Shown: positions 10,800-40,865 of the stretch, in pieces
How positions within the stretch are numbered: position 1 is the stretch's first letter
Layout of the letters: every line of letters begins with the position of its first letter
NCBI GenBank assembly: GCA_964598355.1
Contig: CAZRBN010000002.1
Location: 1-46,611, forward strand
Direction: 5' to 3'
DNA: 46,611 bases
Origin: an uncultured Gammaproteobacteria bacterium
GTDB lineage: Bacteria; Patescibacteriota; Microgenomatia; Levybacterales; UBA12049
The notes under the pieces: model-generated
Seen by the model: the letters and a program-made list of their open reading frames with translations, nothing else
Database searches by the model: none
Told to the model about the DNA's origin: nothing
Position numbers and translations under genes: made by a program

Positions 10800-10879
10800 C
10801 TAGGGTAAGTATTTAGTGTATTGATTGAATTACCTCTTTATACTCAGTACAAAATACCATATACTAGATACTCATTCTG

Positions 10880-15634: not shown

Positions 15635-15640
15635 AAGTTA
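15452..15640 (+). repeat. 3' conserved cassette, copy A (dockerin module)
   Basis: Aligns without gaps to 17378-17567. The dockerin-coding DNA and stop context are clearly homologous, while the catalytic cores between the cassettes are unrelated. Confidence 0.8.
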
Positions 15641-15775: not shown

Positions 15776-16027
15776 TAAATTTTACCATGCATCTTTTGCT
15801 CTTTGTTTGACAAGATAGCCTTCTTTTCTGCATTATATATAATATATGGGTCCTATACCACAACAATCGACTCCTTTTATTCATGAAGAGAGTAGGTGGG
15901 AGAAAGTGAGAAGCTTTCTTTCTTCTGTAAGATATCTCTTTGGGGGTTTTCTGGCTATTACGTTAGTCGGCGGATTGGTAGTATCTGTTTTCTTGTCTCA
16001 GCAAAAACAAACTATCCAACAGCATGC
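15776..16027 (+). repeat. 5' conserved cassette, copy B
   Basis: Homologous to 13855-14104 (see copy A). Confidence 0.85.
15807..15836 (+). promoter_or_regulatory. promoter of the second glycosidase-dockerin gene (short or no leader)
   Basis: TTGACAAGATAG (-35 at 15807-15812), 18-nt spacer, CATTAT (15831-15836). ATG 15846 lies 9 nt after the -10, and no Shine-Dalgarno sequence is present. Confidence 0.45.
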
Positions 16028-17561: not shown

Positions 17562-17567
17562 AGGTTG
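17378..17567 (+). repeat. 3' conserved cassette, copy B (dockerin module)
   Basis: Homologous to 15452-15640. Confidence 0.8.
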
Positions 17568-18553: not shown

Positions 18554-21500
18554 TTAGTTAACTATCAGCCAGTTGAATGTTGTATCAGTAAATTGTTGGA
18601 CTGGGATACCTACGGTAAAGGAAGTTCCTCCGACTTGTCTCAAAAGATATGGAGTATATGTTGTCTGTCCTACAGGTGTGATGTAGATAAGTGATTTTGG
18701 TGTGACCAGCTTATTATCAATAGTCACTTCGACTTGGTGCGCTTTGACTGCTGCTGTTCCTGCAGACCCTGTTGCAACAACTTCAATATTACTGACTGCA
18801 AGGGCTGGTTGAATAGCTGGGAAGTTAAGCTTGGCAATACTTGCCGCTCCTGAGGCAATAACATTGCCCAATTGGTCGATGTTAAAGATACCAGAGCCTG
18901 ATGCATTCTGGACAGACAATGTTGTTGTTGCGAGTGCAGAACCAGTGGCCATTGTATTCTCACCTAATTTAAATGTAAGGTCTCGATCATTGGCAAGTGA
19001 GGTAATAACGTTGGCTGCCAAATTCTTTGTAAAGATTGCATTGCCATTGACTGTCAAATTACCATCTGTATCTATTGCAATAAGCCCTCCTTCAAATGAT
19101 ACGTTTCCTTGTCTGAGATTTTGGATTTGGAAAGTACCACCTAAGACATTGACTGAGTTGTCAGCAATAATAAGTTGTGTCCCAATTGCCAGCTGTCCGT
19201 TAATAGTGGTATCAGAGAGAGACGTCTGACCAAGCGAGACAAGTCCTTGACTAAACATGGCAGTATTTGCATTCAGGTTAGGAACATAGGCAAGGAAGCC
19301 AGAATAGGAAGCAATATTTGCATAGCCCAAGGAGGGAGCTAGCAGACCTGAGTTAGAGCTGCTAATAGAGCTAGATCCTGTAATAGTATTTGTTCCAATC
19401 GTGTTAGCAGAAGGGGTAGCGAAGTAAATATTGGTGACATTTGTGATATTTTGAGCAGAAAGTGTACCCACTGCTGCAGAAAGTCCAGTGATTTCATCAG
19501 CCACGATTCGATGGGCATGAAGGGTACCGGAGACTGTAGCATCAGCATTTACTGCAAGATTTTGCGAGTTTAATTGTCCAGAAAATGTTGCATTGCCATT
19601 GTTGTCAATACTAGCCACAGCAGAGGAAGATGCGTCTTTTGCTACTTCTATCCCAGAGTTAGTTAGTCTTAATGCAACATTACCACCATTTAGTGGTGAA
19701 ATGACATTTGTTTTCACAGAATCACTTTGGGCAACTTGGCCACTCGTAAGGCCGGCATTTTGGACAACAGACAAGATATAGTCGTGCAAACTTTGTCCAG
19801 CAATGGTGACATTTGCTGTTGCAATTGCTAGAGAATTTGTGAAAAGTTGTTGGGTTTGTATAGATCCTGCTCGAAGATTTGCAACTGCTAATTCAAGGAA
19901 AGTTCCCATTCTTGTAATAGATCCACCAAGTGTATCATTGAGTGTGTAATAATGTGGGACAGTAAAGTTAGCAGATGGGGAAGCATCAGCTAAATGCATA
20001 TCTCCAGTTGATGTAAGGTAAACTTGTGGATCATACCAAGAAGTATTAACAAATATGAATGCCTTTCCGCAAATAACTCCGTTGGGTGTCCCGGCAGGGC
20101 AGTCAATAAGGCCTTCTCCATTCTGGCCATTTGCAGGGTCAAATTCCTGCATCGCTTTTCCTACTACAGCACCTGGTTTGGTCACTTTCATGCCAAAAGC
20201 TTTTATGTTACTACTAGTAATCCTATCTCCAATATGAATTGAGCCATTTAGTGTAGAAACTTTTACAGGGACACGTCCTGCCATAGCAACAGGGGGTTTA
20301 AGAGAGGGGACGACTGATGGTCCATCAGCAGAATTTCCTCCAAGTGATAATCTTCCCTCCTCAATGATAATTGCTGGATCTGTTGATACGACACCAATGA
20401 CATTTGAATCGTATTCTGAGTTAGCAAGTCTCACCATTTTCCCAGAAGGAGAAGACTCATCAAGAGTTATAATATCAGCAGGTGCTGCAATCTCTGTTGA
20501 ATTATAAAATTCAGCATAGTCAATACAAGCATTAGTGCCTACGGTAGTACATCCTCCACCTATCGTGAGTATTTTTGTACCATGAGTTCCAAAGTTTCCA
20601 TTAAGAACAGTCCAATTCCCACTGGTATTTACCCAAAAAGGGTGAGGGTTAGTATGTGCATTGTTATCAATAACAAAGGCATTTCCATTATTTGTTGGTT
20701 TAAAACCAAGGTAGTGAACAGAAGACTCTGAGTAATCTCCAATAGTATAATCACTATTCGCATTACCTCCACCAAAGTGAATAAAGTCTCCTCCTCCACC
20801 AAGGTCAAGACGAGCAGCAGGATTATTTGTTCCAATACCCACATTGCCACCAAATTCTTGGAGAGCAAGAGGCTCTTTAACGGTATTGCCAACATTATAT
20901 GATTCCATTCCAAGGTAAGTAGTCGATCCATTATAGCTCCTATAAATTTCTCCTGTTTGTCCATCGGACGGTCCCAAAGCTATCAATGATTCGAAGGCGC
21001 CTGTGGATACGGTACTGCCACGAACATCAAGTTTACCATTTGGTCCAGTTGTACCAATACCAACCTTACCAGGAGTTGTACCATTTGAAAAATATATATT
21101 ATCTGAATTATTAGGGAGTATAAGTTGCCTATCATTATTCCAGACTCCGTATTGACTCCCTGAATTGGTGTGGAGGAAATATGTATTGCTGCCATCATTT
21201 CTGAAAAAGGCACCATAGTTGCCAAAAACCATACGGAATTGTCCACCATTACCTCCATTATCATCACCAGTCCCAATAAAGCCGGTACTGGACCGCACAT
21301 TGCCGACAACATCCAAAGGATACGCTGGTGCAGTAGTTCCAATACCCACATTGCCAGCTCCGTCAGGATTTAGGTTGATAGACTTATTTGCATAGACTAT
21401 TTTTATAGGATTCCAAAAGGATGCATTATCATACTCATATAACCACAAATCTTGATTATTAGTTCTATGAGAAAACACATATTCATTGGAAGCTGTATTT

Positions 21501-24500
21501 AATGGAGAATTTCTTATGACTAGGGCATCGTTATTAGCATTTATATTGCCATAAATTGTTGCAGATCCCGAAGCATTGATACTCCCAACGACATCAAGAG
21601 CTACGGCGGGGTTGATGGTGCCTATTCCTACTTTTCCATTAACAGCCATGGCAATGCCCGAGGCAGCAGGGTCCAGGAAATATCTTGTATCCTGTAGGTC
21701 TTGGAACGAACTTACTCTCAGAATACCACTGTTAGTAAGTTGGAGTTGGGTACCTGCTGATGAAGAAGCAGTTAAGATATCTCCTGCACCAGGCTGTAAA
21801 ATACTGACTGTTGCATTGCCAAGACTTGTGGTATCAATATTAACGATATTATTTCCACTTGCGTCTTGGAACTGCATGGCATTGGCTGAATTGATAAGAG
21901 ATCTGGAAAGTAAATTACCGTTGTTATCAACTCGAAAAGCATCAGCAAGCACAGCAGAGGAGGTTGCACCAAAAGCTACGTTATCGAGTCTGGTTGAGAG
22001 CTGGTTGGTGACTCGCAAAAGAGAATCAACATTTAAGTTTGATTGTGTAAGACTTGCTCCAAATGGATTGTATGAGCTTGCTAAGAAGTCTTTAAAGTTG
22101 GTATCTTGCGTCTCAATCCAGGTATTACTTGATGCTCCAATAGCGATTGCTGAGCCATTCCCATAGGACTGCCCAACAGCAAGAGAAGTAACAAAGTTAT
22201 TAGAGCTGGTATTCCAGGAAGTCCCAACATCATCTTTAGTGGATACTCCTGATGAATAGATATCAGTTACTGTATCAGTATCCATACCAACAACAGAGAC
22301 GCCGCCTCCTTGTGTGCCAATATATATTTGCCCATTTTGCATATTTGCAGCAACAGCTGAGACGTTTGAGTTGCCATTAATAAGCTTCTGATTAGAATCA
22401 GCTCCTGTTACGATACTTCGAATAGTCTTGCTGCTGTGATTTTGCAAGGCTCTGTACCCAACTTGATATATATGGGCAATTTCACTTCCGGTCAATGTGT
22501 TTGCAGTGACAAATGGCTCATCAATTGATCCGTTGAAGAAGTCAGCTGGAGATCCAGAACTAAAGTATGCACCAATAGCAAAATCAAGATTGTTGTCGGG
22601 GATGGTTTGGCTGTGTGGTTGTGATGCTTCAAGTTGACCATCGATATATACCTTGGAATTGACGCCATCATACGTTGCAACCACGTGGTGCCACACGCCA
22701 TCATTGATTGACCGTGTTGAAGTTGCATCAGGAGATGCATTTATGGAAAATATAGCTTTGCCTATGGAGTTAATATACAAGAAATATTCTCCAGCAACTC
22801 CTGAGTTAAATTTAGAAATTATCATTTGATTAGTCGATCCACTTGTCTTGACCCATGCTCCAAGCGACCACGTCTTACCACCAGAAGCTAGTTTAGATGT
22901 CCCTCCACAATTTGCATTGGTACAAGTTAGATAACCTGTTGTGCCGTTAAAAGTAAGCGCAGTACCGCGAACACCAGAAGTAGAGTAAGTGACACCACCA
23001 CTCGAAGTAGCAGTAAGAGTGATACCTTTTACAGATGCATCGCTAACATTTCCTGACGTTTCATTAAATGACCACATGCCTCGGATATCTCCAACCATAT
23101 CTTCAGTAATAAAGTTGCTGTTGTAATATTTCACAGATCCATTCGCAATGTCTCCTTGTTTTTCCTGAATCACAGCTAATGCACCATTACTTCCACCTTC
23201 GCCAATGTAAATAGTATTTGATTTTCCATCAACAGTTGATGTCCCTTCAGTAACAAACATACTTGTGGCATTCATTACTGCAGCTGTTGTTGCGGTTGGA
23301 CCAGCAGTAAGGGTAAGAGAACTGAAGGTATTATTGTCAGTTGTCGTAGTGCCATAATTAGTACTTGCTTGATATGCATACACTTCATCATACGTTTGGT
23401 TATTCGTATTACTCGGTGTCAAATTTTGTATACCACGTTTTACCTTCAATGCATATGTGGCTGGCGTTGTTTGGTCTCCAACCAACGCATACAAGTCTCC
23501 CTGAGCAGTAATCCATAGAGATTTGACTTGTGCTGCAGGACCAAATTTACCAACGAGTTGTCCTTGCGTTTCATTAATAATGGATACTCCTCCAGCAGAA
23601 TTACCAGTATTAGCAGCAGCAAAATAGGTTTTACCATTGACAACCCGTACAGCAATATCGGTAACTGCGGTACTATTAATAAATGCATTTACAGAAGGAT
23701 TGAGTGCATAAGTGACAGGAGTATTTCGTGCACTTATATTAGAGGTTGTGTTATAGAAGCCAGTATTATTATACTTGTAAGCAGTATCATCTCTGAAATT
23801 CATCACGTAAAGACCCCCGGCAGATCCAGTTGTTCCAAAATAAATTTTGCCATTTATTGCAGTGACTGTATTTCCTGAAGAATTGGTTGTTGGGCCAACC
23901 ATTTGCTCAGTAGCTCCTGAGCCTTTATCAAATTCCATCCACAGAGAATTATCTTTTGCATCAAAGATATAGAGTGCGCCGGTTGTGCCTGAAGTAACAA
24001 CCAAGACTGCTTTCTTCGGGAAGGGCTGTGCTCCACAGCGGGTATTGGTGTTAATGACACAGCTGTCAACAGAAGTTCGGGATTCATTGTACCAGGATGC
24101 TGATTGGGCCCGCTCATCATTCGTCCATCGTCCACCATCTGCATCTTTTGATGTGTCATAGACAAACACTTTTTGGACGTTACTGAGAGCAAAAAGATTC
24201 TTATGGCCACCAATGGTTAAATCTTTGTCATTGAGTGTCATGTAGGTATGGTTGGTTGAGGCAATGTTAATGATGTTGTTGGTTGGGGGAAGGGTACCCG
24301 TGTTACTATTTACTTTAGGATCGTTAGGTGTCAGGGCAATTGTCCCAGCATTTATGCCTGAGCCAAAGACTTGGAATCTGGCTGATGCAGTAGAGCTTCC
24401 TCCAACAGCTAAGTCATTGGTAAGATTGGCAGGAGCGAGTACCCCTTGACTGGAAAGCTGCCAAAATCCAGCAAGGCCTCCGTTAACTGGCGTAACAATT

Positions 24501-27500
24501 TGTCTGACATAGAGCGTATCCCACTCTTTTCCTCCAGCGGTTGGGTCTGAGCCTAAGTTATACGTGTTATTTGCATTTGGAATAAGGCTATTTTTAATTG
24601 TGCCATCATTGGCAATGGTGAAGAGGGGTGTTCCCGATGCTGAAGCAGTAAAGACATCGCCAAGTCCTGAGACATTGGTTTGGTTGACTACCAGTTGAGC
24701 ATTGCCAAGATTGGTTGAAGCTCCAACACCGGTGTTACCGATAAATGCATTCAAGAAAAGATTGGTTGAGCTGCCACTATTTGTCGAAAAATCTATGTTA
24801 TGCCCTTGAGATCTCAAGAGTAAGTCACCAATGCTGGATCCAGTAATAACTCCTCCAGCACTGTTAGAGACGCCAATAAATGCTTGTGTTGTCCCATTTG
24901 TCTGGAAGCCTAAGACATTGTTTCCTGATGTTTTATTAAGGCTCAATGTTTCAAGTGGTGCTCCGTTATTAATCCCCACGTTCCCTCCGTTGAAGATGAT
25001 ATTTCCTGTTTGAGAGTCCCCAATCGTAATACCTGCATTATTTCGTGCAGCAATCAGGTTGGTGGCTGATGTTCCACCAAATACTATGTTACCACTGGTT
25101 GTTGCATTGCCGGTTAAGCCAAAGACTTGAAATTTAGCAGACGTGGTTGCGGTCCCACCAATAGCCACATCATTGGTCATATTAAATGGTGAGAGAACAC
25201 CACTGTTGAGCTGCCAGTACCCATCGTATCCTCCAGTTGCAGGCAGAAGAAGATTCTGAGCGTAGATAGTACCAAAGTTATTCGCCGAAGATCCAAGGTT
25301 GATACTGGTTGAGTTTGGAATAAGACTACCTGTGAAAAGACCAACTGGATTGATACCGTTCGTTACTGAAGATCCAAGCGTTATATTGCCTCGAATGAGA
25401 TTTGCACCGCTTGCGTTGCCAATATTAATACCGGTTATAGCTTGGCTTCCAATGTTGAGAGTTGCTACAGTTGTATTGAAAAGATTGACTGCTCCTTGTG
25501 TGGTAATAATATTGCTACCTCCCAAGGTAAGGTCTCCATTAGTTGCCAATGTTAATTGGTTGGTAAGTCCTGCATCTCCACCAACTGAAGTTTTAATGTT
25601 TAAGGCACTGCCGTTAAGAAGTGAAACATTGGTATTTGCCCCGCGGAAGGAAAGGCCTCCAGAGGAGGTTGCTGTGCCTGCTGTGTTGACTCCCGCTGTT
25701 GTTGAGAAAATTTGCCATGGAGTTGCAGAACCTGTTGCTGTTCCACCAATTGCCAAATCATAAAAGGTATTAATTGGGAAAATAAGATTATTAGTGAGAG
25801 ACCAAAATCCAGATGTTCCGCCAGTAATTGGTGAAACAATATTGTTGGCATAGACAGTATTGTAGTAGTGGATTGAAGAGCCAAGATTGACTGAGCCATT
25901 GCCTGTTGGAATTATATCGCTATTATATAATGCAGTGGATGTAATAGTGTTGGTGTTTGAAGTACCAAGAGTAATATTGCCATTGAGAGTTGTTGTTCCT
26001 GCTGAGTTGCCTACATTTACTGCTGTTGTTGCTCCACCTGCAAAATTTATCGTTGTTGCCGTGGTATTGAGTAGTGAAAATGTTGTTTGATTGGTTGTGA
26101 GTGAGGTTCCTTTAATTTGTAGAGGATTATTGATGCTAGTAGTGCCTGTGGTTGCACCTATACTAAGCGTACTTGCTGCTCCTGCGAAATTGACATTCGT
26201 TGCTCCGGTATTAATCAGATCAAATCCTCCTGAATTTGCATCAAGTCTTGCCCCATTAATGGTAACGCCTCCTGTTCCATTATGAGGAGTAAGAGCAATA
26301 TCCCCAGTTGTTGCTCCTCCAACTGTTAGATTGCTAAATCGTGTGGTCTGGAGTGTCCCGTCAGCAGCCATATATATTGACGTACCATTGAGTCCACTGG
26401 ATACAGAAGCGGTTGGTGTTCCAGATCCAGTCATATTTAAGACTGCAAACTTTGCAGAACTAGTTGCTGTTCCGCCTATAAAAACATCTAGAGTTGCATT
26501 TATAGGATAGAGGGCTCCAGTATTCAATACCCAGTAGGATCCATTGCCTCCTGTGCCACAAGTGCCCCAGCTTGGGCCACCTCCTGCATTCGACTTAAGA
26601 CATTCTCCTAAATTACCAGTGGTTGTTTGTGAAATAACGCCAGTTGTACTGCCATAGAGAACTCCGCCATCAGTTATATATTTGGCATCTTTAATTGTTC
26701 CATCATTTTGCACAGTGAATTTTGTACCTGCAGAGTTGGAAGCGGTTATCAGGTCACCTGCAGTATTCAAGTTAGCAACAACGAGCGCTGCATTACCTTG
26801 GGCATTTTTTTCTATATCCAGTCCAGAAAGAGAGAGAGGAGTAAGTGTTCCAATACCTTGCGTGCCTGCGATAAGAAGGGCGATGCCTGATGCAGCTGGA
26901 TCCAAGAAGTATGATGTATTATCAAGGTCTTGGAACGAGCGAACTTTTAGAATGCCTCCATTGCTGACAATAAATTGTGTGCCTGCAGAATTGGAAGCTG
27001 TGAGCAAATCACCTGCAGTATTGAGGTTGGCAAAAATAGCACCGGCATTTCCCAGAGAATCTTTTTCTACATCAAGTGCCGTTGCTGTAGCAGGACTTAC
27101 ACCAATACCCAGCCTGCCTGCAATAAAGGATGCGCCTGTGCCATTTACTGTCAGGTTTGAGGCAATGGTCAATGCTCCAGCATTGGTTATTTTATTTGAA
27201 GAGTTGAAGAATTGAATATCCCCTCCTGTGCTATTGGTCCCAAGAGTGATTGTGCCTGAGCCTGCCAGAATGGAAAGGGCATTATTACTGATTGTTGTAA
27301 CAGTAGGGGTTGTCCCAGTCAGTGCGACTGTTGCAGCTGCAAGGCTCACGGCCCCGGTACCATTATTTGGTGATAAGGTTATTCCTCCAGTGTTATTGCC
27401 ACCCAAAGTAAGTGGCTGGTTGTTGGTTGTTTGGATGTTCCCAGTAGTATTGAAAGTCAGGGTACCAGCAGTGGTAGCATTACCAGTGTTGCCAAAAATT

Positions 27501-30500
27501 TGGAATTTGGCAGAGCTTGTCGCAGTACCGCCAACTAACACATCATTGGTAATGTTGGTTGGGGAGAGAGCTCCGCTATTTAATTGCCAGTAGCCATCTA
27601 TTCCACCAGAGGAGGGGAGAATAATATTGGTTGCATAGAGAGTGCCAAAATTATTGGAAGGAGATCCGAGATTAATACTATTGCCTGTTGGGATAAGGGA
27701 TGCAGCAAATTGTCCGTTAGGGGTAATATTTCCTGTGATAGTCAGTGCACTGTTAACCGTTGTTGTCCCACCAGTAACACCCAGACCTAATGTGGTTGCA
27801 TTAGTCGTAAACACATTAAAGGTAGAGGCCGTTGTTTGGAGAGCACTGCCATTGATAGTGACTACACCTGAGCCATTGTTTGGAGATAAGGTAATTCCAC
27901 CAGTAGTTGTTCCACCCAGAGTAAGGGGAAGATTACTTGTTGTCTGGATTTGTGATCCACCAGTTGTAAATGTCAGGGTGCCAGTGCTAGTTGCATTGCC
28001 AGTGAGACCAAAGATTTGGAATTTTGCAGAAGAGGTAGAAGTTCCTCCAATAGCCACATCATCAGCAATACTCAGGGGGGACAAGACCCCCAGATTTCTT
28101 TGCCAATTTTGGCTGAGACTTTGACCGTTTACGACAACATTATTTGCATAGACGTTATTCCATTGCAGACTGCTCGTGCCTAAATCATAGGCATTGGTAA
28201 CAGAAGGAATTAGACTGGAATTGAACTTGCCGTTGATAGTGATGGTTCCAGTCCCATTGTTGGGGGAGAGTATAAGGCCACCGGTACTTGTCCCGCCAAG
28301 AGTAAGAGGAAGATTATTGGTTGTTTGAATACTCCCTGCGGTATTGAACGTCAGATTTCCGGCAGTAGTTGCATTACCGGTGTTAGCAAAGATTTGGAAT
28401 TTTGCTGTACTGGTAGCGGTGCCTCCAATAGCGAGATCATCGGTGATATTCGTAGGGGATAAGACTCCTAGATTCCTTTGCCAGACACCTGAGATGCTTC
28501 CTCCGGAAATAATATTTTTCACATACAAATTATTCCATTCCGAAGACGAAGCTCCGAGATCGTAGGTATCAGTGGTTACTGGGATAAGATTGGAGTTAAA
28601 CCTACCACTGATGGTAATAGCTCCAGTCCCATTGTTGGGAGAAAGGATGATTCCACCAGTACTTGCTCCACCAAGGGTAAGGGGTTGATTGTTGGTTGTT
28701 TGTATGTTGCCAGCGGTATTGAAAGTCAGATTCCCGGCAGTAGTTGCATTGCCAGAGAGACCAAAAATTTGGAACTTTGCTGTACTGGTAGCAGTACCTC
28801 CGATAGTGACATCGTCAGCGATATTGAAAGGAGCCAAAACACCCAAATTTCTTTGCCATGTAGCAACAATAGGTTGGCCATTTTGGAATATGTTATTTGC
28901 ATATAGATTATTCCATTGTAGGGTATTTGACCCTAAGTCATAGGTATTTGTTACTGATGGGATAAGATTTGAAGCAACTTTTCCATTGAGAGTGACGGTT
29001 CCAGTGCCATTGTTTGGAGAGAGGAGAATGCCACCAGTACTTGTTCCGCCCAGGGTAAGCGTTTGATTATTGGTTGTCTGAATATTCCCTGCAGTATTGA
29101 AGGTCAACGTCCCGGCAGTAGTTGCGTTTCCTGTAGTACCAAATATCTGGAATTTCGCTGTACTGGTAGCTGTTCCACCAATTGCCAAGTCGTCAGTAAT
29201 GTTAGTAGGAGAGGTGACTCCTAAGAATCTTTGCCAGAAGCCAGAGATAGTGCCTCCAGAAGTAATATTTTTTACATAGATATTATTCCATTCCAAAGAA
29301 TTTGAACCTAAATCATAGGTATCAGTTACAGCTGGGATGAGATTTGAGTTTACTTTGCCGTTGATAGTAACAGTGCCATTTCCACTTAATGGAGAAAGGA
29401 TAATATTCCCTGTGCTATTGCCGCCAAGTGTTAGTGCTTGGTTGTTGGTTGTCTGGATAATACCAGCACTGTTGAGCGTAATATTACCAGAGATAGAAGC
29501 AGTTGGTGTTCCTGCTGCAACATTAATGAACGCAAATTTTGCTGAAGACGTCCCTGTTCCTCCAAGTACTAAGTCTAGGGTAGTATTAACAGGGAAGAGA
29601 GTACCAAGATTCATGTTCCACCAGTTGCTACCACCACCAACAGTACAATTACCCCAGCTAGGAGCTCCAGACCCACCAGAAAAAAGACATTGTCCAGTGG
29701 TAGCAGAGTGAGCAAGGATCTGTAGCTTTGAAGCATCTGAGTACACAATGCCACCATTGTCTGCAGTAAGATTGTTGTTTGTTCCACCATTTCCAAGAGG
29801 AAGAGTCCCTGTTACTTCACTTGCTCCACCAGCTAAGTTAAGAGCAGATGAGGTAAGAACGCCAACATTAGTACTATGAACCAAGCCTGTTGTTAGTCCT
29901 GCAATAGTGACGTTACCTAAGCCATTGAGGGGGGAGAGGATGATGTTTCCAGTGGAAGGGCCTCCAAGAGTAAGCGCTTGATTTTTAGTTGTTTGGACAA
30001 CTCCATTGCTATTGAGAGTAAGATTCCCAGAGATAGAAGCAGTAGGAGTACCTGATCCAGGAGCATTGTTGATAAAAGCAAAATTAGCAGAAGCAGTTGA
30101 TGTTCCGCCAAAAAATACATCCAGCGTCGTGTTGATAGGATACAGTATGCCTTGAGTACTATTCAATGTCCAGAAATTAGAACCACTTCCACAAGCTGTC
30201 CATGTTGGTGCTCCAACACCATTTGAGGTAAGACATTGTCCTAAACTCCCAGTTCCTGTTTGAAGGAAGAGCCCTGTGCCGTTTGTATAGAGAATACCTC
30301 CATTGACAGTATAATTTGCAGAAGTAATGTCTCCTGCATTGCCTACAGTGAACTTGGTAGCTCCACTGGATGATGCGGTAATCAGTGGGCCAGAACCGTT
30401 TTGATTAACAATAACTGCTGAAGCAGCGCTCGTTGCCAGGACAGCAAATAAACTATCAACCTCAACAGCTCTAAGCCCAGGAGCAATATTGTTATTGAGT

Positions 30501-32347
30501 GTGCTATTTTGGAGTGGTTTCTGAAGGTCAATAACTCCCGACCCATCTGGTGCGAAAACAATATTACCATTTGTTCCTGGATTGGTATTGAATGCTAAGG
30601 TGTTGCCTGCAACAGTAAATTGACCAGTGGTTGATTGGAAGGTTGTGGATGCTCCGATAGTCAGGTTGCCTGAAGAGTTAAGAGCTAAGATAACATTATT
30701 TGTCCCGGCTCCTGACTGGGTGATAGGAGGAAGTCCTTGGAGTGTTTCAGCATTGGTTGCGTAGGCAACTGTAGCAAGCTGTTGGCGTGGAGTCAGCTCA
30801 GCTGTCTGGTTAACGGCAATTCCCAAGAACAAATTTTGATTGTTGGCAAAAAGAGACTGAGGAATTGTTGTGCCTTTACCGAGCAAAATTGAAAAAACGC
30901 CATTTTTGTCTGGGGTAACTCCATTTACCTCTTGCCACAACAGAGCCCCTCCTGTTGCAGTACTGTCCGAATAAATCGCAAATCGCAAGTTGGTACTTGC
31001 GGTGATTGGGGCATCTGAGGTATCGCTCAGCCGTCCTTGGAAAGATAAAATTCTGGGCGGTGAGCTAGCAGCCAGAGTCTGTGATTGCTCTTTTGGTTTG
31101 GCAATAAAGCTGTTATACATACCAAATCCAATTGTTGTACAAAAAACGATGAGTATTGCCCAATTGAAATAATGAGCGAGTGCTATATTATGATACCTTC
31201 TGTACCAATTAGGGCGTGTGTGCCTAGCGTGATGGACAAGTTTTCTATACCAAGGGAAATGTTCAATTGAGATAGCTAGAGGACTATAGAGCGCTTTTGA
31301 GATATTAGATACTTTGAACTTTAAAGCTGATGTATTATTGGAAATTGGAAATTGGAAATTGGAAATTCTCTTTGCCTTAGCAAAGAGTGGCTTGCCTTGT
31401 ATTTTCCAAAGCTGCTTATGAGCGACAATAACAACTTTGGTCAAAGGAGAGATAACAACGACCTCTATTCCCAGATCTATCCCTTTACCAATTTTTTGGA
31501 TAAGGCGAAGGGGAGGGAAGGAGGAGTAATGAGTAACCGTTAACTGTGAAGCGTTAAGGTTTTCTGGCTTATTTTCTTCTTGATGGTTGACTGTTAACGC
31601 TTCACCATCCTCGCGTGACAGATTGTGATGCGTATTGATGTCCTTTTCTGTCAGAGGCAGATCCTGAGTGCTATCGATGTTTGGCTTTATGTTTATATTG
31701 TCAGGGATTGCTATTTGTGCATTTATGAATCCTTGCTGGTTTGCCCAGGCAAAATATTTACGCAGGGATGACAGTTTCCTGTTGATTGATGATGCAGAGA
31801 AGGCCCCTTCTTCGTAGAGCCTTTGCTTATATTCTTCCAACAGTGAAGGATACAAGTAACTAAAAGCATTTTTCTCACCAACTCGTAGTGTCTCATTTGT
31901 GCCGGAAACTGTTTCTACCCATTGAAGAAATTGTTTCACATCGATGATGTAGTTTTTTATAGTTAGATTGCTTGCGTTATAGACATAAAGAAAGTCTTTA
32001 AATTCTTTTATATGCCATGGATCTTGATTGGTATGTCCGTTACTGTTAGCCATCGCATCAAAGGGAGATTGCGAAGCAGCTCCTTGAAGTTTTAGTGCGT
32101 GAAAAAACTTTCTGAGAGAGGAGAGGTGACGTTCAATTGATCGTACTGAATATGCTTTAGATTTATCTTCTACAAACATCTTAATCTGTTCTTGTGTTGT
32201 TTCATTTGGATTAAAAGATTTAGAGAGAGAAGATTCATACCAGGAAATAAACTGTCTGACGTCTGCAATATAATTTTTCACAGTCGCAGTTGAAGGGACT
32301 GGTTTTTGCGATAGTAAGAAATTTTTAAATTTTAGAATAAATTCCAT
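18554..32347 (-). CDS. giant (4,597 aa) single-pass membrane surface protein: 2x recombinase core-binding domain, TM, fibre repeats, blade-like region with LamG insert, Peptidase_G2-like segment
   Basis: Uninterrupted 13,794-nt ORF. Two CB/SAM-like domains at aa 20-95 and 126-207. TM at aa 395-415 (nt 31103-31165), preceded by a basic patch. Repeated ~126-aa modules. LamG-like domain at aa ~3092-3280 (nt 22505-23075). CIDYAEFY...VIGVVS...GRVPVKV segment at aa ~3940-4070 (nt 20135-20545). Confidence 0.9.
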   Translation of the reverse strand: MEFILKFKNFLLSQKPVPSTATVKNYIADVRQFISWYESSLSKSFNPNETTQEQIKMFVEDKSKAYSVRSIERHLSSLRKFFHALKLQGAASQSPFDAMANSNGHTNQDPWHIKEFKDFLYVYNASNLTIKNYIIDVKQFLQWVETVSGTNETLRVGEKNAFSYLYPSLLEEYKQRLYEEGAFSASSINRKLSSLRKYFAWANQQGFINAQIAIPDNINIKPNIDSTQDLPLTEKDINTHHNLSREDGEALTVNHQEENKPENLNASQLTVTHYSSFPPLRLIQKIGKGIDLGIEVVVISPLTKVVIVAHKQLWKIQGKPLFAKAKRISNFQFPISNNTSALKFKVSNISKALYSPLAISIEHFPWYRKLVHHARHTRPNWYRRYHNIALAHYFNWAILIVFCTTIGFGMYNSFIAKPKEQSQTLAASSPPRILSFQGRLSDTSDAPITASTNLRFAIYSDSTATGGALLWQEVNGVTPDKNGVFSILLGKGTTIPQSLFANNQNLFLGIAVNQTAELTPRQQLATVAYATNAETLQGLPPITQSGAGTNNVILALNSSGNLTIGASTTFQSTTGQFTVAGNTLAFNTNPGTNGNIVFAPDGSGVIDLQKPLQNSTLNNNIAPGLRAVEVDSLFAVLATSAASAVIVNQNGSGPLITASSSGATKFTVGNAGDITSANYTVNGGILYTNGTGLFLQTGTGSLGQCLTSNGVGAPTWTACGSGSNFWTLNSTQGILYPINTTLDVFFGGTSTASANFAFINNAPGSGTPTASISGNLTLNSNGVVQTTKNQALTLGGPSTGNIILSPLNGLGNVTIAGLTTGLVHSTNVGVLTSSALNLAGGASEVTGTLPLGNGGTNNNLTADNGGIVYSDASKLQILAHSATTGQCLFSGGSGAPSWGNCTVGGGSNWWNMNLGTLFPVNTTLDLVLGGTGTSSAKFAFINVAAGTPTASISGNITLNSAGIIQTTNNQALTLGGNSTGNIILSPLSGNGTVTINGKVNSNLIPAVTDTYDLGSNSLEWNNIYVKNITSGGTISGFWQRFLGVTSPTNITDDLAIGGTATSTAKFQIFGTTGNATTAGTLTFNTAGNIQTTNNQTLTLGGTSTGGILLSPNNGTGTVTLNGKVASNLIPSVTNTYDLGSNTLQWNNLYANNIFQNGQPIVATWQRNLGVLAPFNIADDVTIGGTATSTAKFQIFGLSGNATTAGNLTFNTAGNIQTTNNQPLTLGGASTGGIILSPNNGTGAITISGRFNSNLIPVTTDTYDLGASSSEWNNLYVKNIISGGSISGVWQRNLGVLSPTNITDDLAIGGTATSTAKFQIFANTGNATTAGNLTFNTAGSIQTTNNLPLTLGGTSTGGLILSPNNGTGTITINGKFNSSLIPSVTNAYDLGTSSLQWNNVYANNVVVNGQSLSQNWQRNLGVLSPLSIADDVAIGGTSTSSAKFQIFGLTGNATSTGTLTFTTGGSQIQTTSNLPLTLGGTTTGGITLSPNNGSGVVTINGSALQTTASTFNVFTTNATTLGLGVTGGTTTVNSALTITGNITPNGQFAASLIPTGNSINLGSPSNNFGTLYATNIILPSSGGIDGYWQLNSGALSPTNITNDVLVGGTATSSAKFQIFGNTGNATTAGTLTFNTTGNIQTTNNQPLTLGGNNTGGITLSPNNGTGAVSLAAATVALTGTTPTVTTISNNALSILAGSGTITLGTNSTGGDIQFFNSSNKITNAGALTIASNLTVNGTGASFIAGRLGIGVSPATATALDVEKDSLGNAGAIFANLNTAGDLLTASNSAGTQFIVSNGGILKVRSFQDLDNTSYFLDPAASGIALLIAGTQGIGTLTPLSLSGLDIEKNAQGNAALVVANLNTAGDLITASNSAGTKFTVQNDGTIKDAKYITDGGVLYGSTTGVISQTTTGNLGECLKSNAGGGPSWGTCGTGGNGSYWVLNTGALYPINATLDVFIGGTATSSAKFAVLNMTGSGTPTASVSSGLNGTSIYMAADGTLQTTRFSNLTVGGATTGDIALTPHNGTGGVTINGARLDANSGGFDLINTGATNVNFAGAASTLSIGATTGTTSINNPLQIKGTSLTTNQTTFSLLNTTATTINFAGGATTAVNVGNSAGTTTLNGNITLGTSNTNTITSTALYNSDIIPTGNGSVNLGSSIHYYNTVYANNIVSPITGGTSGFWSLTNNLIFPINTFYDLAIGGTATGSATPWQIFSTTAGVNTAGTATSSGGLSFRGANTNVSLLNGSALNIKTSVGGDAGLTNQLTLATNGDLTLGGSNIITTQGAVNLFNTTVATLNIGSQAITGINIGNASGANLIRGNITLGSSVTNGINPVGLFTGSLIPNSTSINLGSSANNFGTIYAQNLLLPATGGYDGYWQLNSGVLSPFNMTNDVAIGGTATTSAKFQVFGLTGNATTSGNIVFGGTSATNLIAARNNAGITIGDSQTGNIIFNGGNVGINNGAPLETLSLNKTSGNNVLGFQTNGTTQAFIGVSNSAGGVITGSSIGDLLLRSQGHNIDFSTNSGSSTNLFLNAFIGNTGVGASTNLGNAQLVVNQTNVSGLGDVFTASASGTPLFTIANDGTIKNSLIPNANNTYNLGSDPTAGGKEWDTLYVRQIVTPVNGGLAGFWQLSSQGVLAPANLTNDLAVGGSSTASARFQVFGSGINAGTIALTPNDPKVNSNTGTLPPTNNIINIASTNHTYMTLNDKDLTIGGHKNLFALSNVQKVFVYDTSKDADGGRWTNDERAQSASWYNESRTSVDSCVINTNTRCGAQPFPKKAVLVVTSGTTGALYIFDAKDNSLWMEFDKGSGATEQMVGPTTNSSGNTVTAINGKIYFGTTGSAGGLYVMNFRDDTAYKYNNTGFYNTTSNISARNTPVTYALNPSVNAFINSTAVTDIAVRVVNGKTYFAAANTGNSAGGVSIINETQGQLVGKFGPAAQVKSLWITAQGDLYALVGDQTTPATYALKVKRGIQNLTPSNTNNQTYDEVYAYQASTNYGTTTTDNNTFSSLTLTAGPTATTAAVMNATSMFVTEGTSTVDGKSNTIYIGEGGSNGALAVIQEKQGDIANGSVKYYNSNFITEDMVGDIRGMWSFNETSGNVSDASVKGITLTATSSGGVTYSTSGVRGTALTFNGTTGYLTCTNANCGGTSKLASGGKTWSLGAWVKTSGSTNQMIISKFNSGVAGEYFLYINSIGKAIFSINASPDATSTRSINDGVWHHVVATYDGVNSKVYIDGQLEASQPHSQTIPDNNLDFAIGAYFSSGSPADFFNGSIDEPFVTANTLTGSEIAHIYQVGYRALQNHSSKTIRSIVTGADSNQKLINGNSNVSAVAANMQNGQIYIGTQGGGVSVVGMDTDTVTDIYSSGVSTKDDVGTSWNTSSNNFVTSLAVGQSYGNGSAIAIGASSNTWIETQDTNFKDFLASSYNPFGASLTQSNLNVDSLLRVTNQLSTRLDNVAFGATSSAVLADAFRVDNNGNLLSRSLINSANAMQFQDASGNNIVNIDTTSLGNATVSILQPGAGDILTASSSAGTQLQLTNSGILRVSSFQDLQDTRYFLDPAASGIAMAVNGKVGIGTINPAVALDVVGSINASGSATIYGNINANNDALVIRNSPLNTASNEYVFSHRTNNQDLWLYEYDNASFWNPIKIVYANKSINLNPDGAGNVGIGTTAPAYPLDVVGNVRSSTGFIGTGDDNGGNGGQFRMVFGNYGAFFRNDGSNTYFLHTNSGSQYGVWNNDRQLILPNNSDNIYFSNGTTPGKVGIGTTGPNGKLDVRGSTVSTGAFESLIALGPSDGQTGEIYRSYNGSTTYLGMESYNVGNTVKEPLALQEFGGNVGIGTNNPAARLDLGGGGDFIHFGGGNANSDYTIGDYSESSVHYLGFKPTNNGNAFVIDNNAHTNPHPFWVNTSGNWTVLNGNFGTHGTKILTIGGGCTTVGTNACIDYAEFYNSTEIAAPADIITLDESSPSGKMVRLANSEYDSNVIGVVSTDPAIIIEEGRLSLGGNSADGPSVVPSLKPPVAMAGRVPVKVSTLNGSIHIGDRITSSNIKAFGMKVTKPGAVVGKAMQEFDPANGQNGEGLIDCPAGTPNGVICGKAFIFVNTSWYDPQVYLTSTGDMHLADASPSANFTVPHYYTLNDTLGGSITRMGTFLELAVANLRAGSIQTQQLFTNSLAIATANVTIAGQSLHDYILSVVQNAGLTSGQVAQSDSVKTNVISPLNGGNVALRLTNSGIEVAKDASSSAVASIDNNGNATFSGQLNSQNLAVNADATVSGTLHAHRIVADEITGLSAAVGTLSAQNITNVTNIYFATPSANTIGTNTITGSSSISSSNSGLLAPSLGYANIASYSGFLAYVPNLNANTAMFSQGLVSLGQTSLSDTTINGQLAIGTQLIIADNSVNVLGGTFQIQNLRQGNVSFEGGLIAIDTDGNLTVNGNAIFTKNLAANVITSLANDRDLTFKLGENTMATGSALATTTLSVQNASGSGIFNIDQLGNVIASGAASIAKLNFPAIQPALAVSNIEVVATGSAGTAAVKAHQVEVTIDNKLVTPKSLIYITPVGQTTYTPYLLRQVGGTSFTVGIPVQQFTDTTFNWLIVN
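27850..29360 (-). repeat. in-frame tandem array of four ~376-nt (125-126 aa) fibre modules in A-B-A-B order
   Basis: The landmark CCAAADATYTGGAA (antisense of AKFQIFG) recurs at 29139, 28761, 28386 and 28008, giving periods of 378/375/378 nt. More diverged copies of the same module extend over ~24.3-30.2 kb. Confidence 0.85.
31337..31367 (-). repeat. heptanucleotide microsatellite (ATTGGAA on + strand, AATTTCC on coding strand), 4.4 copies, inside the giant ORF
   Basis: Read directly: ATTGGAA x4 followed by ATT. It encodes RISNFQFPISN (aa 327-337), upstream of the TM helix. Confidence 0.9.
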
Positions 32348-32896: not shown

Positions 32897-33871
32897 ATGC
32901 CCTTTCAAATATTTAAATACTTACATGCAAAAATATCTAGATGCCAGCATATATTACTATACAAATTAGTCCCTTTGTTTATTTGTTTGTCTATCTATTT
33001 ATTCACCTTTAGTTTGCTTAAGGGACTTGGATTTCAAGGACAGGTATATGCTCAATCAGCATCGCAGAGTGGAGATGTAAATATAATGGTCAGTATAAAC
33101 GGGTATGTCTTAGATCTTTCAGGATATATTGCCCCATACGCATCAATTACCCTTACAAGCAATGGGAATGTTTTTGCTTCGACAGTTGCTGACTCCCAAG
33201 GGAACTTCTCTTTTTCTTCCGTACGCGTTGCAAAAGGTTTTACTACCTTTTGTCTTGATGCAATTGACTTTAAAAGACTAGGAGAGTCTGAGGCGTGCTT
33301 CACAATTCCTCCTGTTACTGGTCCATATAGTAAGTCTCAAATATTTCTGCCTCCAACACTAGGTGTTTTTCGTACTTCAATCAATGTGGGGGATAAGGCA
33401 TTGGTATTTGGGTATGGCATGCCAGGAGCATCAATCAGTATCAAACTAGATAATAAAGTTATTTGTGAAAAGAATGCTGATGAAGGAGGATATTATGAAT
33501 GTAACTTTGCTATTCAAAAAGAAGGAAGCCATGAAGTTTATGCGGATTCCAAGCTGAATAGTAAAGCCTCAGAGCCTCAGCTGAAGAGAGTGTTGATTAA
33601 AGGGATAGGACTTTTGAAGATTGCCAACCCAACTCCAGCTATAGGGAAAAATATTACCAACATTCTTTTCGGTCTGCCAGGCTTACTGATAGCACTCTTC
33701 CTCTTATTTCTGCTAATTATCCTTCTTATTGTATGGCTAAGGAAGGCTAACCCTGCTTGGCTGCCACACGTATTCGTGCCAGATCCTAAGCAGAGTCTCC
33801 GGCATGCCTTTGATAGCCTCTTCAGAGAACGCAAACTGCACCATTGGTGGATGGAAGGGGTAGGATACTAG
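32897..33871 (+). CDS. hypothetical membrane-anchored surface protein with two Ig/carboxypeptidase-regulatory-like beta modules
   Basis: N-terminal hydrophobic segment. Beta-rich modules carry ADSQGNFSFSSVRV and ADEGGYYECNFAIQKEGSHEVYA. A C-terminal TM (LLIALFLLFLLIILLIVWL) is followed by a short basic tail. Confidence 0.65.
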   Translation: MPFQIFKYLHAKISRCQHILLYKLVPLFICLSIYLFTFSLLKGLGFQGQVYAQSASQSGDVNIMVSINGYVLDLSGYIAPYASITLTSNGNVFASTVADSQGNFSFSSVRVAKGFTTFCLDAIDFKRLGESEACFTIPPVTGPYSKSQIFLPPTLGVFRTSINVGDKALVFGYGMPGASISIKLDNKVICEKNADEGGYYECNFAIQKEGSHEVYADSKLNSKASEPQLKRVLIKGIGLLKIANPTPAIGKNITNILFGLPGLLIALFLLFLLIILLIVWLRKANPAWLPHVFVPDPKQSLRHAFDSLFRERKLHHWWMEGVGY

Positions 33872-40864: not shown

Positions 40865-40865
40865 C

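What the first reader, a model, noticed from the sequence alone, without database searches (positions are those of the whole stretch)
18554..32347. Single 13.8-kb ORF: membrane-anchored 4,597-aa surface giant with a recombinase-CB / fibre / lectin / phage auto-cleavage domain plan
Seen in sequence: one uninterrupted minus-strand ORF fills ~30% of the window. Its translation reads, in order:
- two tandem tyrosine-recombinase core-binding (SAM-like) domains (aa 1-215);
- a basic patch (HHARHTRPNWYRRYH) and a single TM helix (aa 395-415);
- ~2,100 aa of G/T/N/S-rich fibre modules punctuated by YDLG(S/T)xxxxWNN(L/I/V)Y;
- a blade-like region (GALYIFD, GKIYFGT, GKTYFAA, GDLYALV, NTIYIGE, GQIYIGT) interrupted by a LamG/ConA-like domain;
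- a Peptidase_G2-like segment;
- ~520 further residues.
By the positive-inside rule, ~390 aa are cytoplasmic and ~4,180 aa are outside.

Inference: this is a host- or substrate-contact fibre built partly from phage tail-fibre parts and physically coupled to a cytoplasmic DNA-binding-type module. I cannot name a characterised protein with this layout.
Basis: partly seen in the sequence, partly recalled or inferred. Interest (0 to 1): 0.8.

Follow-up and report, generated by a model that had tools for sequence, protein, structure and literature searches.

The report
Membrane-anchored giant phage-fibre-like surface protein
A 4,597-residue protein of an uncultivated ultrasmall bacterium (Levybacteria, CPR) is a membrane-anchored surface fibre built from phage tail-fibre parts, with two recombinase DNA-binding-type domains and no recombinase enzyme on its cytoplasmic end; it belongs to a large, conserved family that has not been studied and that databases mislabel as "integrase".

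Summary
Window 18554-32347 (-) is one stop-free 4,597-codon ORF.

Domain plan, N to C:
- Two tyrosine-recombinase core-binding (CB) domains and no catalytic domain.
- One conserved TM helix (aa 389-416).
- A conserved ectodomain base.
- A G/T/N/S-rich repeat fibre.
- A cassette with a LamG domain inside it.
- A T4 gp34-type tail-fibre domain.
- A phi29 gp12-type self-cleaving chaperone (IMC) domain with an invariant DxxE.
- About 480 more conserved residues, ending in a beta-sandwich.

The Peptidase_G2 call is below threshold on this sequence alone. Profile, homologue and fold evidence support it. The "blades" are only partly verified.

The protein is not a one-off. At least 196 clusters (50% identity) share the N-terminal module, always at residue 1, with lengths from about 1,300 to 6,048 aa. 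Nearly all come from Levybacteria. The ends are conserved and the middle is shuffled in modules.

The gene sits at a fixed chromosomal position next to a PamT-like pilin and a WxLIP-like membrane protein.

Best reading: a trimeric, N-terminally anchored host- or substrate-contact fibre. What the cytoplasmic CB pair does is unknown and is the novel part. Verdict: new variant of a known kind, interest about 0.6.

The parts
18554..32347 (-). Whole gene: 4,597 codons plus stop
   Evidence: Every internal junction is spanned by collinear BLASTP matches in independent assemblies.
32042..32347 (-). CB domain 1 (aa 1-102), cytoplasmic, pI 9.65
   Evidence: Pfam and NCBIfam; AF2 pLDDT >90; Foldseek; invariant N25 Y26 D29 R73 S76 F81; pI
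31712..32026 (-). CB domain 2 (aa 108-212), cytoplasmic
   Evidence: invariant T129 K131 N132 Y133 D136 R190 S193 S194
31517..31711 (-). Acidic, disordered, poorly conserved linker (aa 213-277)
   Evidence: pLDDT <50; pI 4.7
31184..31516 (-). Basic juxtamembrane region (aa 278-388): long amphipathic helix 278-317 and the conserved TRPxWYxxYH motif
   Evidence: family pI 9.8-10.8
31337..31367 (-). Perfect (AATTTCC)x4.4 heptanucleotide array inside the linker (aa ~327-338, ISNFQFPISN)
31100..31183 (-). Single TM helix / signal anchor (aa 389-416), N-in
30248..31099 (-). Conserved ectodomain base (aa 417-700; starts PPRILSFQGRL)
   Evidence: Covered in 74-77 of 80 homologues; consensus; no Pfam or PDB match
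24281..30247 (-). Variable G/T/N/S-rich fibre (aa 701-2689) with YDLGSxxxWNNxY-type motifs
   Evidence: weak matches to three phage tail-fibre genes
27988..29344 (-). Tandem 375-378-nt (125/126-aa) repeat array within the fibre, 61-78% identical
21650..24280 (-). Cassette (aa 2690-3566): repeated 'G-x-IY-x-GT' motif region with LamG inserted. It is shared with 5 cassette copies in 4 Levybacteria loci and with Roizmanbacteria and WWE3 proteins.
22475..22945 (-). LamG / ConA-like lectin domain (aa 3135-3291)
   Evidence: PF13385 E 2e-21; PDB profile 4qvs E 2e-14 and neurexin
20903..21316 (-). T4 gp34 / Mu S-type tail-fibre domain (aa ~3678-3815)
   Evidence: PF21446 E 1e-14; 5yvq, 4uxe, 5nxf; 393 phage records
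20003..20521 (-). IMC / Peptidase_G2-like auto-cleavage domain (aa 3943-4115). Predicted cleavage is I3942|D3943 (DYAEFY).
18794..20002 (-). Conserved post-IMC region (aa 4116-4518), low-confidence as a monomer model, fibre-like
   Evidence: In some relatives it sits behind Peptidase_S74 instead of G2.
18557..18793 (-). C-terminal beta-sandwich (aa 4519-4597) ending in FNWLIVN. That ending is conserved in all 44 complete homologues.
35755..36528 (-). Conserved upstream neighbour: PamT-like pilin (signal peptide, 257 aa)
   Evidence: Window protein is sub-threshold. 30/30 orthologues hit CPR_Pam_pilin_C and 27/30 hit PamT. Synteny.
34770..35747 (-). Conserved upstream neighbour: WxLIP_PGBD-like protein with a signal peptide and a C-terminal TM helix (candidate PamC/D-type chaperone)
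   Evidence: 21/30 orthologues; the chaperone role is inferred
36562..37200 (-). Conserved upstream neighbour: small multi-pass membrane protein with an acidic tail
32897..33871 (+). Divergent neighbour: Ig-like (Big_6 / CarboxypepD_reg) protein with a C-terminal TM helix, conserved in 29 loci
11681..13753 (-). Conserved downstream neighbour: multi-TM plus TPR protein. In this window it is separated from the giant gene by an insertion of one pentapeptide gene and two dockerin genes.

Best explanation
The gene encodes a type II (N-in, C-out) membrane protein of a Levybacteria (Patescibacteria/CPR) cell. It most likely forms a long trimeric surface fibre of the phage tail-fibre kind.

Shown:
- The domain order and the single conserved TM helix.
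- The phage-derived gp34 and gp12-IMC modules, with an invariant D-x-x-E at the position where phi29 gp12 cleaves itself.
- Conservation of both ends across at least 196 sequence clusters, with modular turnover of the middle.
- A fixed chromosomal position beside Pam-pilus-like genes.

Inferred:
1. The chain is exported through Sec, using aa 389-416 as a signal anchor.
2. The C-terminal IMC domain emerges last. It nucleates trimerisation and folding, then cleaves at I3942|D3943.
3. The mature stalk (aa ~417-3942, roughly 100-200 nm when scaled from T4 fibres) stays anchored by three TM helices.
4. The variable middle, including the LamG lectin cassette, sets what the fibre binds, such as a host-cell surface or a polysaccharide. 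It evolves by module shuffling, as phage receptor-binding proteins do.
5. The six cytoplasmic CB domains per trimer are basic and the best-conserved part of the protein. They bind nucleic acid, or a partner, at the fibre base.

The role of the CB domains is the least certain step. The fate of the conserved 655-residue C-terminal fragment (shed, or retained non-covalently as the tip) is also open.
For: - Intact ORF.
- CB x2 without a catalytic domain.
- Conserved TM and juxtamembrane motif, with a single TM helix.
- gp34 domain.
- IMC domain: the homologue L001 passes Pfam at the aligned site. The family profile aligns its invariant DxAE onto residue 1 of the cleaved gp12 fragment 3gqh. 15 of 32 members hit PF11962. 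Fold hits include 3suc and viral preneck-appendage and IMC proteins.
- LamG.
- Family size and lengths up to 6,048 aa, with the N-module always at residue 1.
- At least 240 loci in species-representative genomes, nearly all Levybacteria.
- Conserved ends and a modular middle.
- The cassette is shared with other CPR phyla.
- Synteny: LeuRS - membrane protein - PamT-like - WxLIP-like - fibre - TPR protein.
- PamT-like identity of the neighbour.
- A preprint notes a 'tail fibre-like protein' co-localised with pam operons across CPR.
- No phage genes in the window.
Against: - There is no expression, localisation, oligomer or cleavage data.
- Peptidase_G2 is below Pfam's threshold on this sequence itself.
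- In gp12 the cleaved fragment is ~160 aa. Here ~480 further conserved residues lie beyond the IMC domain, which the simple 'chaperone is discarded' model does not explain.
- The AF2 monomer models are poor for the fibre parts.
- No binding partner or host is known.
- Nothing here shows that the CB domains bind DNA.
Confidence: 0.6

Rival explanations
1. Contact-sensing signal transducer. The fibre is mainly a sensor. The cytoplasmic CB pair is a membrane-tethered DNA-binding regulator, held at or released from the membrane when the fibre engages a target. This would be analogous to ToxR/CadC-type or RsgI-type systems.
For: - The layout is cytoplasmic DNA-binding-type domains, one TM helix and an extracytoplasmic domain.
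- The CB domains and the juxtamembrane segment are the most conserved parts, and they are basic.
- A disordered linker separates the CB pair from the membrane-proximal helix.
Against: - No protease site, site-2 protease or regulator partner is seen in the conserved neighbourhood.
- CB domains are not known to act as transcription factors on their own (my knowledge).
- A stalk of 1,300-6,000 aa is an unusual sensor.
- The phage-fibre modules point to a structural or adhesive role.
Confidence: 0.15
2. Structural envelope, matrix or cell-cell fibre with no host-recognition role. For example, a spacer, a sheath component or a biofilm scaffold that works with the adjacent Pam-like pilus proteins.
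For: - The gene looks like a lineage-wide, fixed-position core gene rather than an accessory island.
- Its neighbours are envelope proteins: pilin-like, PG-binding-domain-like, and a multi-TM TPR protein.
Against: - A purely structural element would not be expected to vary 4-fold in length and swap lectin-type cassettes between close relatives.
- The LamG and gp34 modules are typical of binding proteins.
Confidence: 0.15
3. Tail fibre of a prophage or tailocin that happens to lie in the chromosome.
For: gp34-like and gp12-like modules, and structural hits to many phage fibre and spike proteins.
Against: - No capsid, tail, baseplate, terminase or lysis genes are in the 46.6 kb. The flanks are Rho, LeuRS, tRNAs and a two-component system.
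- The chromosomal position is the same in dozens of genomes.
- The N-terminal TM anchor and the cytoplasmic domains do not fit a virion protein.
- The only PHROG hit is the CB region, against phrog_1.
Confidence: 0.03
4. The database view is right: it is a site-specific integrase. Alternatively, the ORF is an assembly or frame artefact that fuses an integrase fragment to a surface protein.
For: Public records name relatives 'site-specific integrase, partial' or 'recombinase XerD'.
Against: - There is no catalytic domain. Xer models are matched only over their first ~100 positions and far below the cut-off.
- The fusion is conserved from residue 1 through the TM helix into the ectodomain in 70 close homologues and at least 196 clusters from many projects.
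- The internal repeats are only 61-78% identical, so collapse in assembly is unlikely.
Confidence: 0.02

Closest known systems
Bacteriophage phi29 gp12 pre-neck appendage (tailspike; MEROPS/Pfam Peptidase_G2, PDB 3suc/3gqh)
   Same: - It has a C-terminal intramolecular-chaperone domain.
- The family's invariant D-x-A-E aligns with DFAEYF at the N-terminus of gp12's cleaved fragment.
- The fold match is the top PDB hit.
   Different: - gp12 is a soluble virion protein of ~850 aa, and its cleaved piece is ~160 aa and C-terminal.
- Here the IMC domain is followed by ~480 more conserved residues.
- Here the protein is membrane-anchored and cellular.
- The Pfam score on this sequence is below threshold.
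T4 long tail fibre proximal subunit gp34 / phage Mu tail fibre S (PF21446; PDB 4uxe, 5nxf, 5yvq)
   Same: One ~120-residue domain (aa ~3678-3815) is clearly homologous, with 39-45% identity to phage fibres. The overall elongated, repeat-rich, presumably trimeric design is also shared.
   Different: Only this one domain is shared. The rest of the 4,597 aa has no close phage relative. There is no baseplate attachment part.
Cellular 'tail fiber domain-containing proteins' with a C-terminal Peptidase_S74 or Peptidase_G2 chaperone domain
   Same: They have the same logic of a cell-surface fibre that folds through a self-cleaving C-terminal chaperone. Some relatives of the post-IMC module carry S74 in place of G2.
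   Different: As far as I know, those proteins have ordinary signal peptides and no cytoplasmic domain. The CB-CB-TM anchor is specific to this family.
Tyrosine recombinases XerC/XerD/XerA (N-terminal core-binding domain)
   Same: Both N-terminal domains match the CB/SAM-like fold and its sequence motifs (T-x-x-Y-x-x-D and R-x-L-S-x-L-R-x-F).
   Different: - There is no catalytic domain, so no recombination chemistry is possible.
- The CB domain is duplicated in tandem.
- The pair is tethered to the membrane.
Pam pilus system of CPR bacteria (preprint 10.64898/2026.03.03.709456)
   Same: The gene lies next to a PamT-like pilin and a membrane-anchored two-domain protein with the PamC/D architecture. 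The preprint reports a 'tail fibre-like protein' consistently co-located with pam operons.
   Different: The giant protein is not a pilin and shows no donor-strand architecture. The preprint does not describe the fibre protein. Whether its fibre protein is homologous to this one was not tested.
Membrane-bound one-component regulators (ToxR, CadC) and RsgI-type anti-sigma factors
   Same: They share the topology: an N-terminal cytoplasmic nucleic-acid- or regulator-binding module, one TM helix and an extracytoplasmic domain.
   Different: The cytoplasmic fold differs (winged helix or anti-sigma domain rather than CB). Their ectodomains are small sensors, not multi-thousand-residue fibres. This is analogy only.

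Membership tests
Tyrosine recombinase / site-specific integrase (the name public records give) | N-terminal core-binding (SAM-like) domain | tested here: met
   Two copies: Pfam E 4e-15 and 4e-10; AF2 plus Foldseek
Tyrosine recombinase / site-specific integrase (the name public records give) | C-terminal catalytic domain (Pfam Phage_integrase, with the R-K-H-R-H/W-Y active site) | tested here: not met
   No hit at E<=1 anywhere in the 4,597 aa. After aa 212 come a disordered linker and the TM helix.
Tyrosine recombinase / site-specific integrase (the name public records give) | Score above the NCBIfam XerC/XerD cut-off | tested here: not met
   65.8 and 62.3 bits against cut-offs of 335 and 330. 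Only model positions ~7-96 are matched.
Peptidase_G2 / gp12-type intramolecular chaperone | Pfam PF11962 at or above the gathering score | tested here: not met
   13.4-15.2 bits against 25 on this sequence. The homologue L001 scores 38.7 bits at the aligned site. 15 of 32 homologues hit at E<=0.01.
Peptidase_G2 / gp12-type intramolecular chaperone | Asp and Glu (D-x-x-E) at the self-cleavage site | tested here: met
   D3943 and E3946 are invariant in 32/32 sequences. They align to residues 1 and 4 of the cleaved gp12 fragment 3gqh. That these are the catalytic residues is from my knowledge of gp12.
Peptidase_G2 / gp12-type intramolecular chaperone | Fold of the chaperone domain | tested here: met
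   The AF2 model has pLDDT ~90 for aa 3940-4115. The top PDB hit is 3suc (probability 1.0). A viral 'preneck appendage protein' matches with TMt 0.61.
Peptidase_G2 / gp12-type intramolecular chaperone | Trimerisation and actual autoproteolysis | not testable with these tools
   Needs multimer modelling or biochemistry.
T4 gp34-type tail-fibre domain (PF21446) | Pfam hit above the gathering score, and a match to solved fibres | tested here: met
   55.5 bits against 27; 4uxe E 9e-8 and 5yvq E 3e-8
LamG / ConA-like lectin superfamily (PF13385) | Pfam hit above the gathering score | tested here: met
   77.2 bits against 27.6; PDB profile hits
LamG / ConA-like lectin superfamily (PF13385) | Carbohydrate or ligand binding | not testable with these tools
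   Four mutually similar ~25-aa motifs. No Pfam or PDB match.
Pam pilus locus (neighbourhood, not the giant protein itself) | Pam pilin / PamT homologue adjacent | tested here: met
   30/30 orthologues of window 35755-36528 hit NF058581 and 27/30 hit NF058579 (best E 6.5e-16). The window copy itself scores only 21 and 17.5 bits, below the cut-offs.
Pam pilus locus (neighbourhood, not the giant protein itself) | Membrane-anchored PapD/FimC-like chaperone (PamC/D) | tested here: inconclusive
   Window 34770-35747 has a signal peptide and a C-terminal TM helix. 21/30 orthologues hit WxLIP_PGBD. There is no NCBIfam or PDB match.
Prophage / tailocin | Neighbouring virion or tail-module genes | tested here: not met
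   None in the window. The cellular synteny is conserved.

The most novel reading that the evidence does not exclude
The tandem catalysis-dead CB domains are a working DNA clamp at the cytoplasmic foot of an extracellular fibre. As a pair they would mimic the two CB domains of a XerC/XerD dimer on a dif-like site, or grip DNA non-specifically. This would physically tie a chromosomal site, or incoming DNA, to the point of host contact, or relay contact into gene regulation. It would be a previously unknown class of trans-envelope coupling between a surface adhesin and DNA, in bacteria that depend on a host.
Probability: 0.15. Interest if true: 0.9.

Novelty: new variant of a known kind. Interest (0 to 1): 0.6.

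Why it matters
CPR/Patescibacteria make up a large share of bacterial diversity and appear to live attached to other cells. The molecules that make and specify that contact are mostly unknown outside Saccharibacteria.

This family is a strong candidate for such a molecule in Levybacteria, for four reasons:
- It appears lineage-wide and sits at a fixed locus.
- It lies beside Pam-type pilus genes.
- It is built like a phage receptor-binding fibre.
- Its middle diversifies by cassette exchange, as would be expected for a specificity determinant.

The family also has practical weight for annotation. Hundreds of records are labelled 'site-specific integrase', which inflates counts of mobile elements in CPR genomes.

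The recombinase-derived cytoplasmic module is unexplained. Its DNA binding can be tested directly. If it binds DNA, it would define a new way of linking a surface structure to the nucleoid.

Tried and rejected
- **Second TM helix at aa 289-310.** Rejected. The segment is charged and amphipathic across homologues.
- **Prophage origin.** Rejected on gene content and synteny.
- **DGR targeting.** One relative (L002) has a bAvd-like gene upstream. The window has no RT and no template/variable repeat pair.
- **ON/OFF phase variation through the 7-nt array in the linker.** Weakened. The same kind of array sits inside the essential LeuRS gene in ten cases, and four copies equal an in-frame +21 nt.
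- **Naming the fibre base (aa 417-1100) and the 'blade' flanks.** Pfam tiles and PDB sequence or profile searches found nothing.
- **Single-sequence PDB search with the CB pair.** It gave only a spurious guanylate kinase hit. Profile and fold methods were needed.
- **PDB profile searches for the two pilus-like neighbours.** Nothing found.
- **Promoter and terminator scans around the gene.** At background level.
- **Literature.** Four searches found no description of the family. One search found nothing on heptanucleotide repeats in CPR.
- **Length ceiling in the search for homologous proteins.** It listed no hit longer than ~1,500 aa in any of the three searches, so the full-length picture came from genome loci and the representatives search.
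Full report
**1. The observation**

Window 18554-32347 (-) is a single ATG-initiated ORF of 4,597 codons with no internal stop. It takes up 29.6% of the window.

The surrounding genes are cellular:
- Rho, LeuRS and two tRNA-Ala genes.
- An M23/LysM peptidase and GT2 glycosyltransferases.
- A histidine kinase and response regulator.
- Dockerin proteins.

There are no phage structural genes. Best matches of the protein and of its neighbours come almost entirely from Candidatus Levybacteria/Levyibacteriota MAGs (Microgenomates group, Patescibacteria/CPR).

**2. Cytoplasmic part**

- Pfam finds two Phage_int_SAM domains (aa 19-84 and 113-206).
- NCBIfam XerC/XerD models match only over their first ~100 positions and far below their cut-offs.
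- No catalytic integrase domain is detectable.
- An AF2 model built on 35 homologues gives two confident four-helix CB domains (aa 2-102 and 113-204, pLDDT >90). These are followed by a disordered acidic linker (213-270), a long helix (278-317) and a terminal helix at 389-416.
- The top Foldseek PDB matches are recombinase CB domains: 3nrw (TMt 0.70), XerA, lambda Int and IntI.
- Both CB domains are basic across the family (median pI 9.3-9.4). The juxtamembrane segment is more basic still (pI 9.8-10.8).
- The invariant residues of the whole N-terminal region sit in the CB motifs and in TRPxWYxxYH just before the membrane.
- The hydropathy peak at 388-416, and its conservation, support one TM helix with the N-terminus inside.
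- A second hydrophobic patch (289-310) is amphipathic and charged in relatives, so it is not a TM segment.

**3. Ectodomain**

- After a conserved base (aa 417-700) comes about 2,000 aa of T/G/N/S-rich sequence.
- This stretch contains YDLGSxxxWNNxY-type motifs and 125/126-aa tandem units.
- The units are only 61-78% identical at the DNA level, so collapse during assembly is unlikely.
- A cassette at aa 2690-3566 holds a LamG domain (aa 3135-3291, E 2e-21).
- The LamG domain is flanked by a repeated G-x-IY-x-GT motif. Four copies are demonstrably homologous to each other, on both sides of the LamG insert. The fold could not be named.
- The same cassette occurs in five copies at four Levybacteria loci. 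It also occurs in Roizmanbacteria and WWE3 proteins that lack the CB module.
- aa ~3678-3815 is a true T4 gp34 / Mu S tail-fibre domain. It matches 393 phage tail-fibre records.

**4. The self-cleavage domain**

On this sequence alone, Peptidase_G2 scores only 13-15 bits against a cut-off of 25. Four other lines support the assignment:
- A homologue that is 33% identical over 700 aa (E 2e-79) passes Pfam at the aligned place.
- A 32-sequence family profile hits the cleaved C-terminal fragment of phi29 gp12 (3gqh, E 7.7e-6). The family's invariant D-x-A-E falls on residues 1-4 of that fragment.
- 15 of 32 members hit PF11962 at E<=0.01.
- The AF2 model of aa 3940-4115 is confident, and its best PDB match is pre-mature gp12 (3suc). 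Many viral preneck-appendage, IMC and K1-lyase C-domain hits follow.

The predicted cleavage site is I3942|D3943. Unlike gp12, about 480 further residues follow the IMC domain. They are conserved to the last residue: all 44 complete homologues end in FNW(L/W/I)I(I/V)N. The last ~80 residues form a confident beta-sandwich. In some relatives this post-IMC module sits behind a Peptidase_S74 chaperone instead of G2.

**5. Family context**

- The N-terminal 541 aa find 70 close relatives. Those that carry a source name are mostly labelled 'site-specific integrase, partial'.
- An exhaustive search of 1.84 billion cluster representatives finds 196 clusters at E<=1e-30. The module is always at residue 1, and protein lengths run from ~1,300 to 6,048 aa.
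- A scan of species-representative genomes finds at least 240 loci. Complete ORFs cluster at ~1,350-1,600 aa, and a tail extends beyond 3,700 aa.
- Coverage mapping shows that aa 1-700 and ~3930-4597 form the conserved core. The part between them is a mosaic of modules shared with only 4-20 relatives.
- Every junction in the window protein is bridged by a collinear match in at least one independent assembly. This argues against a chimera.

**6. Neighbourhood**

The gene occupies one chromosomal position in dozens of genomes. The order is LeuRS, a small multi-pass membrane protein, a 257-aa secreted protein, a 325-aa protein with a signal peptide and a C-terminal TM helix, (a divergent Ig-like membrane protein), the fibre gene, and a multi-TM TPR protein.

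- All 30 orthologues of the 257-aa protein hit NCBIfam CPR_Pam_pilin_C, and 27 hit PamT.
- 21 of 30 orthologues of the 325-aa protein hit WxLIP_PGBD. This protein has the membrane-anchored two-domain architecture that a 2026 preprint describes for the PamC/D chaperones of the CPR-specific Pam pilus.
- The same preprint notes, without further analysis, that a 'tail fibre-like protein' is consistently co-located with pam operons.
- In this window, a pentapeptide-repeat gene and two paralogous dockerin genes are inserted between the fibre gene and the TPR gene.

**7. Interpretation**

The best-supported model is a trimeric, N-terminally anchored surface fibre. It folds from its C-terminal chaperone domain as phage spikes do. 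It carries exchangeable binding cassettes and acts in host or substrate contact, together with or alongside a Pam-type pilus.

The architecture is well supported. Trimerisation, cleavage, surface display and binding are inferred.

The cytoplasmic CB pair is the real novelty. It is the best-conserved part of the protein, it is basic, and it cannot catalyse recombination. A DNA-tethering or signalling role is possible but untested.

Rival readings are listed separately with probabilities: sensor/regulator, purely structural fibre, prophage fibre, and real integrase or artefact.

**8. Novelty**

Phage-fibre-like cell-surface proteins with self-cleaving chaperone domains are a known, if poorly studied, kind. 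The CB-CB-TM anchor, the long conserved post-IMC module and the lineage-wide syntenic link to Pam-like genes are new features. I found them described in no paper. I therefore rate this a new variant of a known kind, of moderate to high interest.

Noticed in passing
window 31337-31367; also 3626-3654, 10690-10724, 36463-36497; loci L002-L082: Heptanucleotide tandem arrays are a lineage feature. In 1.30 Mb of Levybacteria sequence, perfect tandem repeats of at least 4 copies have these unit lengths: 7 nt in 27 cases, 8 nt in 4, 4 nt in 2, 5 nt in 1, 6 nt in 1, and 9-12 nt in none. Shuffled sequence has none. Among the 7- and 8-nt arrays, ten lie in the cytoplasmic linker of the giant-gene orthologues, seven lie at aa 13-27 (signal-peptide region) of the pilin-like and WxLIP-like neighbours, and eleven lie inside LeuRS at insertion-tolerant positions. 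One unit, AAATTGG/CCAATTT, recurs at non-homologous sites in four genomes and encodes the same peptide (FQFPISN) in any frame. Four copies equal an in-frame +21 nt. The mechanism is unknown, and I found no paper on it.
   Followed up: partly
window 40080-42112: The comEA/comEC region downstream of LeuRS is broken into short ORFs: a 55-aa HhH fragment at 40608-40775 and a 135-aa Competence-domain fragment at 41514-41921. The syntenic genes look intact in a relative (L002). Because the 13.8-kb ORF nearby is intact, this looks like real decay of the DNA-uptake genes rather than sequencing error.
   Followed up: partly
window 13855-15640 and 15776-17566: There are two tandem paralogous genes of 570/571 aa with C-terminal dockerin domains; one also has a GH26-like region. 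Their ends and upstream regions are 79-91% identical. Together with a secreted pentapeptide-repeat gene (17602-18504), they are an insertion relative to the conserved Levybacteria gene order.
   Followed up: partly
window 9417-9459, 10689-10731, 10839-10881, 37455-37497: A ~43-nt AT-rich motif (TATACTAGATACAAAATACCATATACTA...) recurs just upstream of the M23 peptidase gene, both tRNA-Ala genes and LeuRS. It may be a shared promoter element.
   Followed up: no
L002 8783-9196: One relative has a bAvd / 23S_rRNA_IVP-like gene directly upstream of its fibre gene. That gene type is the accessory protein of diversity-generating retroelements. No such element is in the window.
   Followed up: partly
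L001/L063 10001-14627: In a 1.14-Mb Levybacteria chromosome the orthologue is split into 677-aa and 868-aa ORFs that overlap by 14 nt. This is either a frameshift or sequencing error, or a real split.
   Followed up: no
window 1605-5006 and 11681-13753: Two large multi-pass membrane proteins have no family assignment for their membrane parts. One is 1,133 aa and sits between two GT2 genes. The other is the conserved 690-aa TPR protein next to the fibre locus. Either could be a glycosyltransferase- or ligase-type enzyme acting on the S/T/N-rich fibre or pilin; this was not tested.
   Followed up: no
record titles of loci L003-L082: Many of the MAGs that carry this Levybacteria-specific locus are titled 'uncultured Gammaproteobacteria', 'Sulfotelmatobacter', 'Eisenbacteria' or 'Methylomirabilota'. 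These look like placeholder or mis-binned labels.
   Followed up: no
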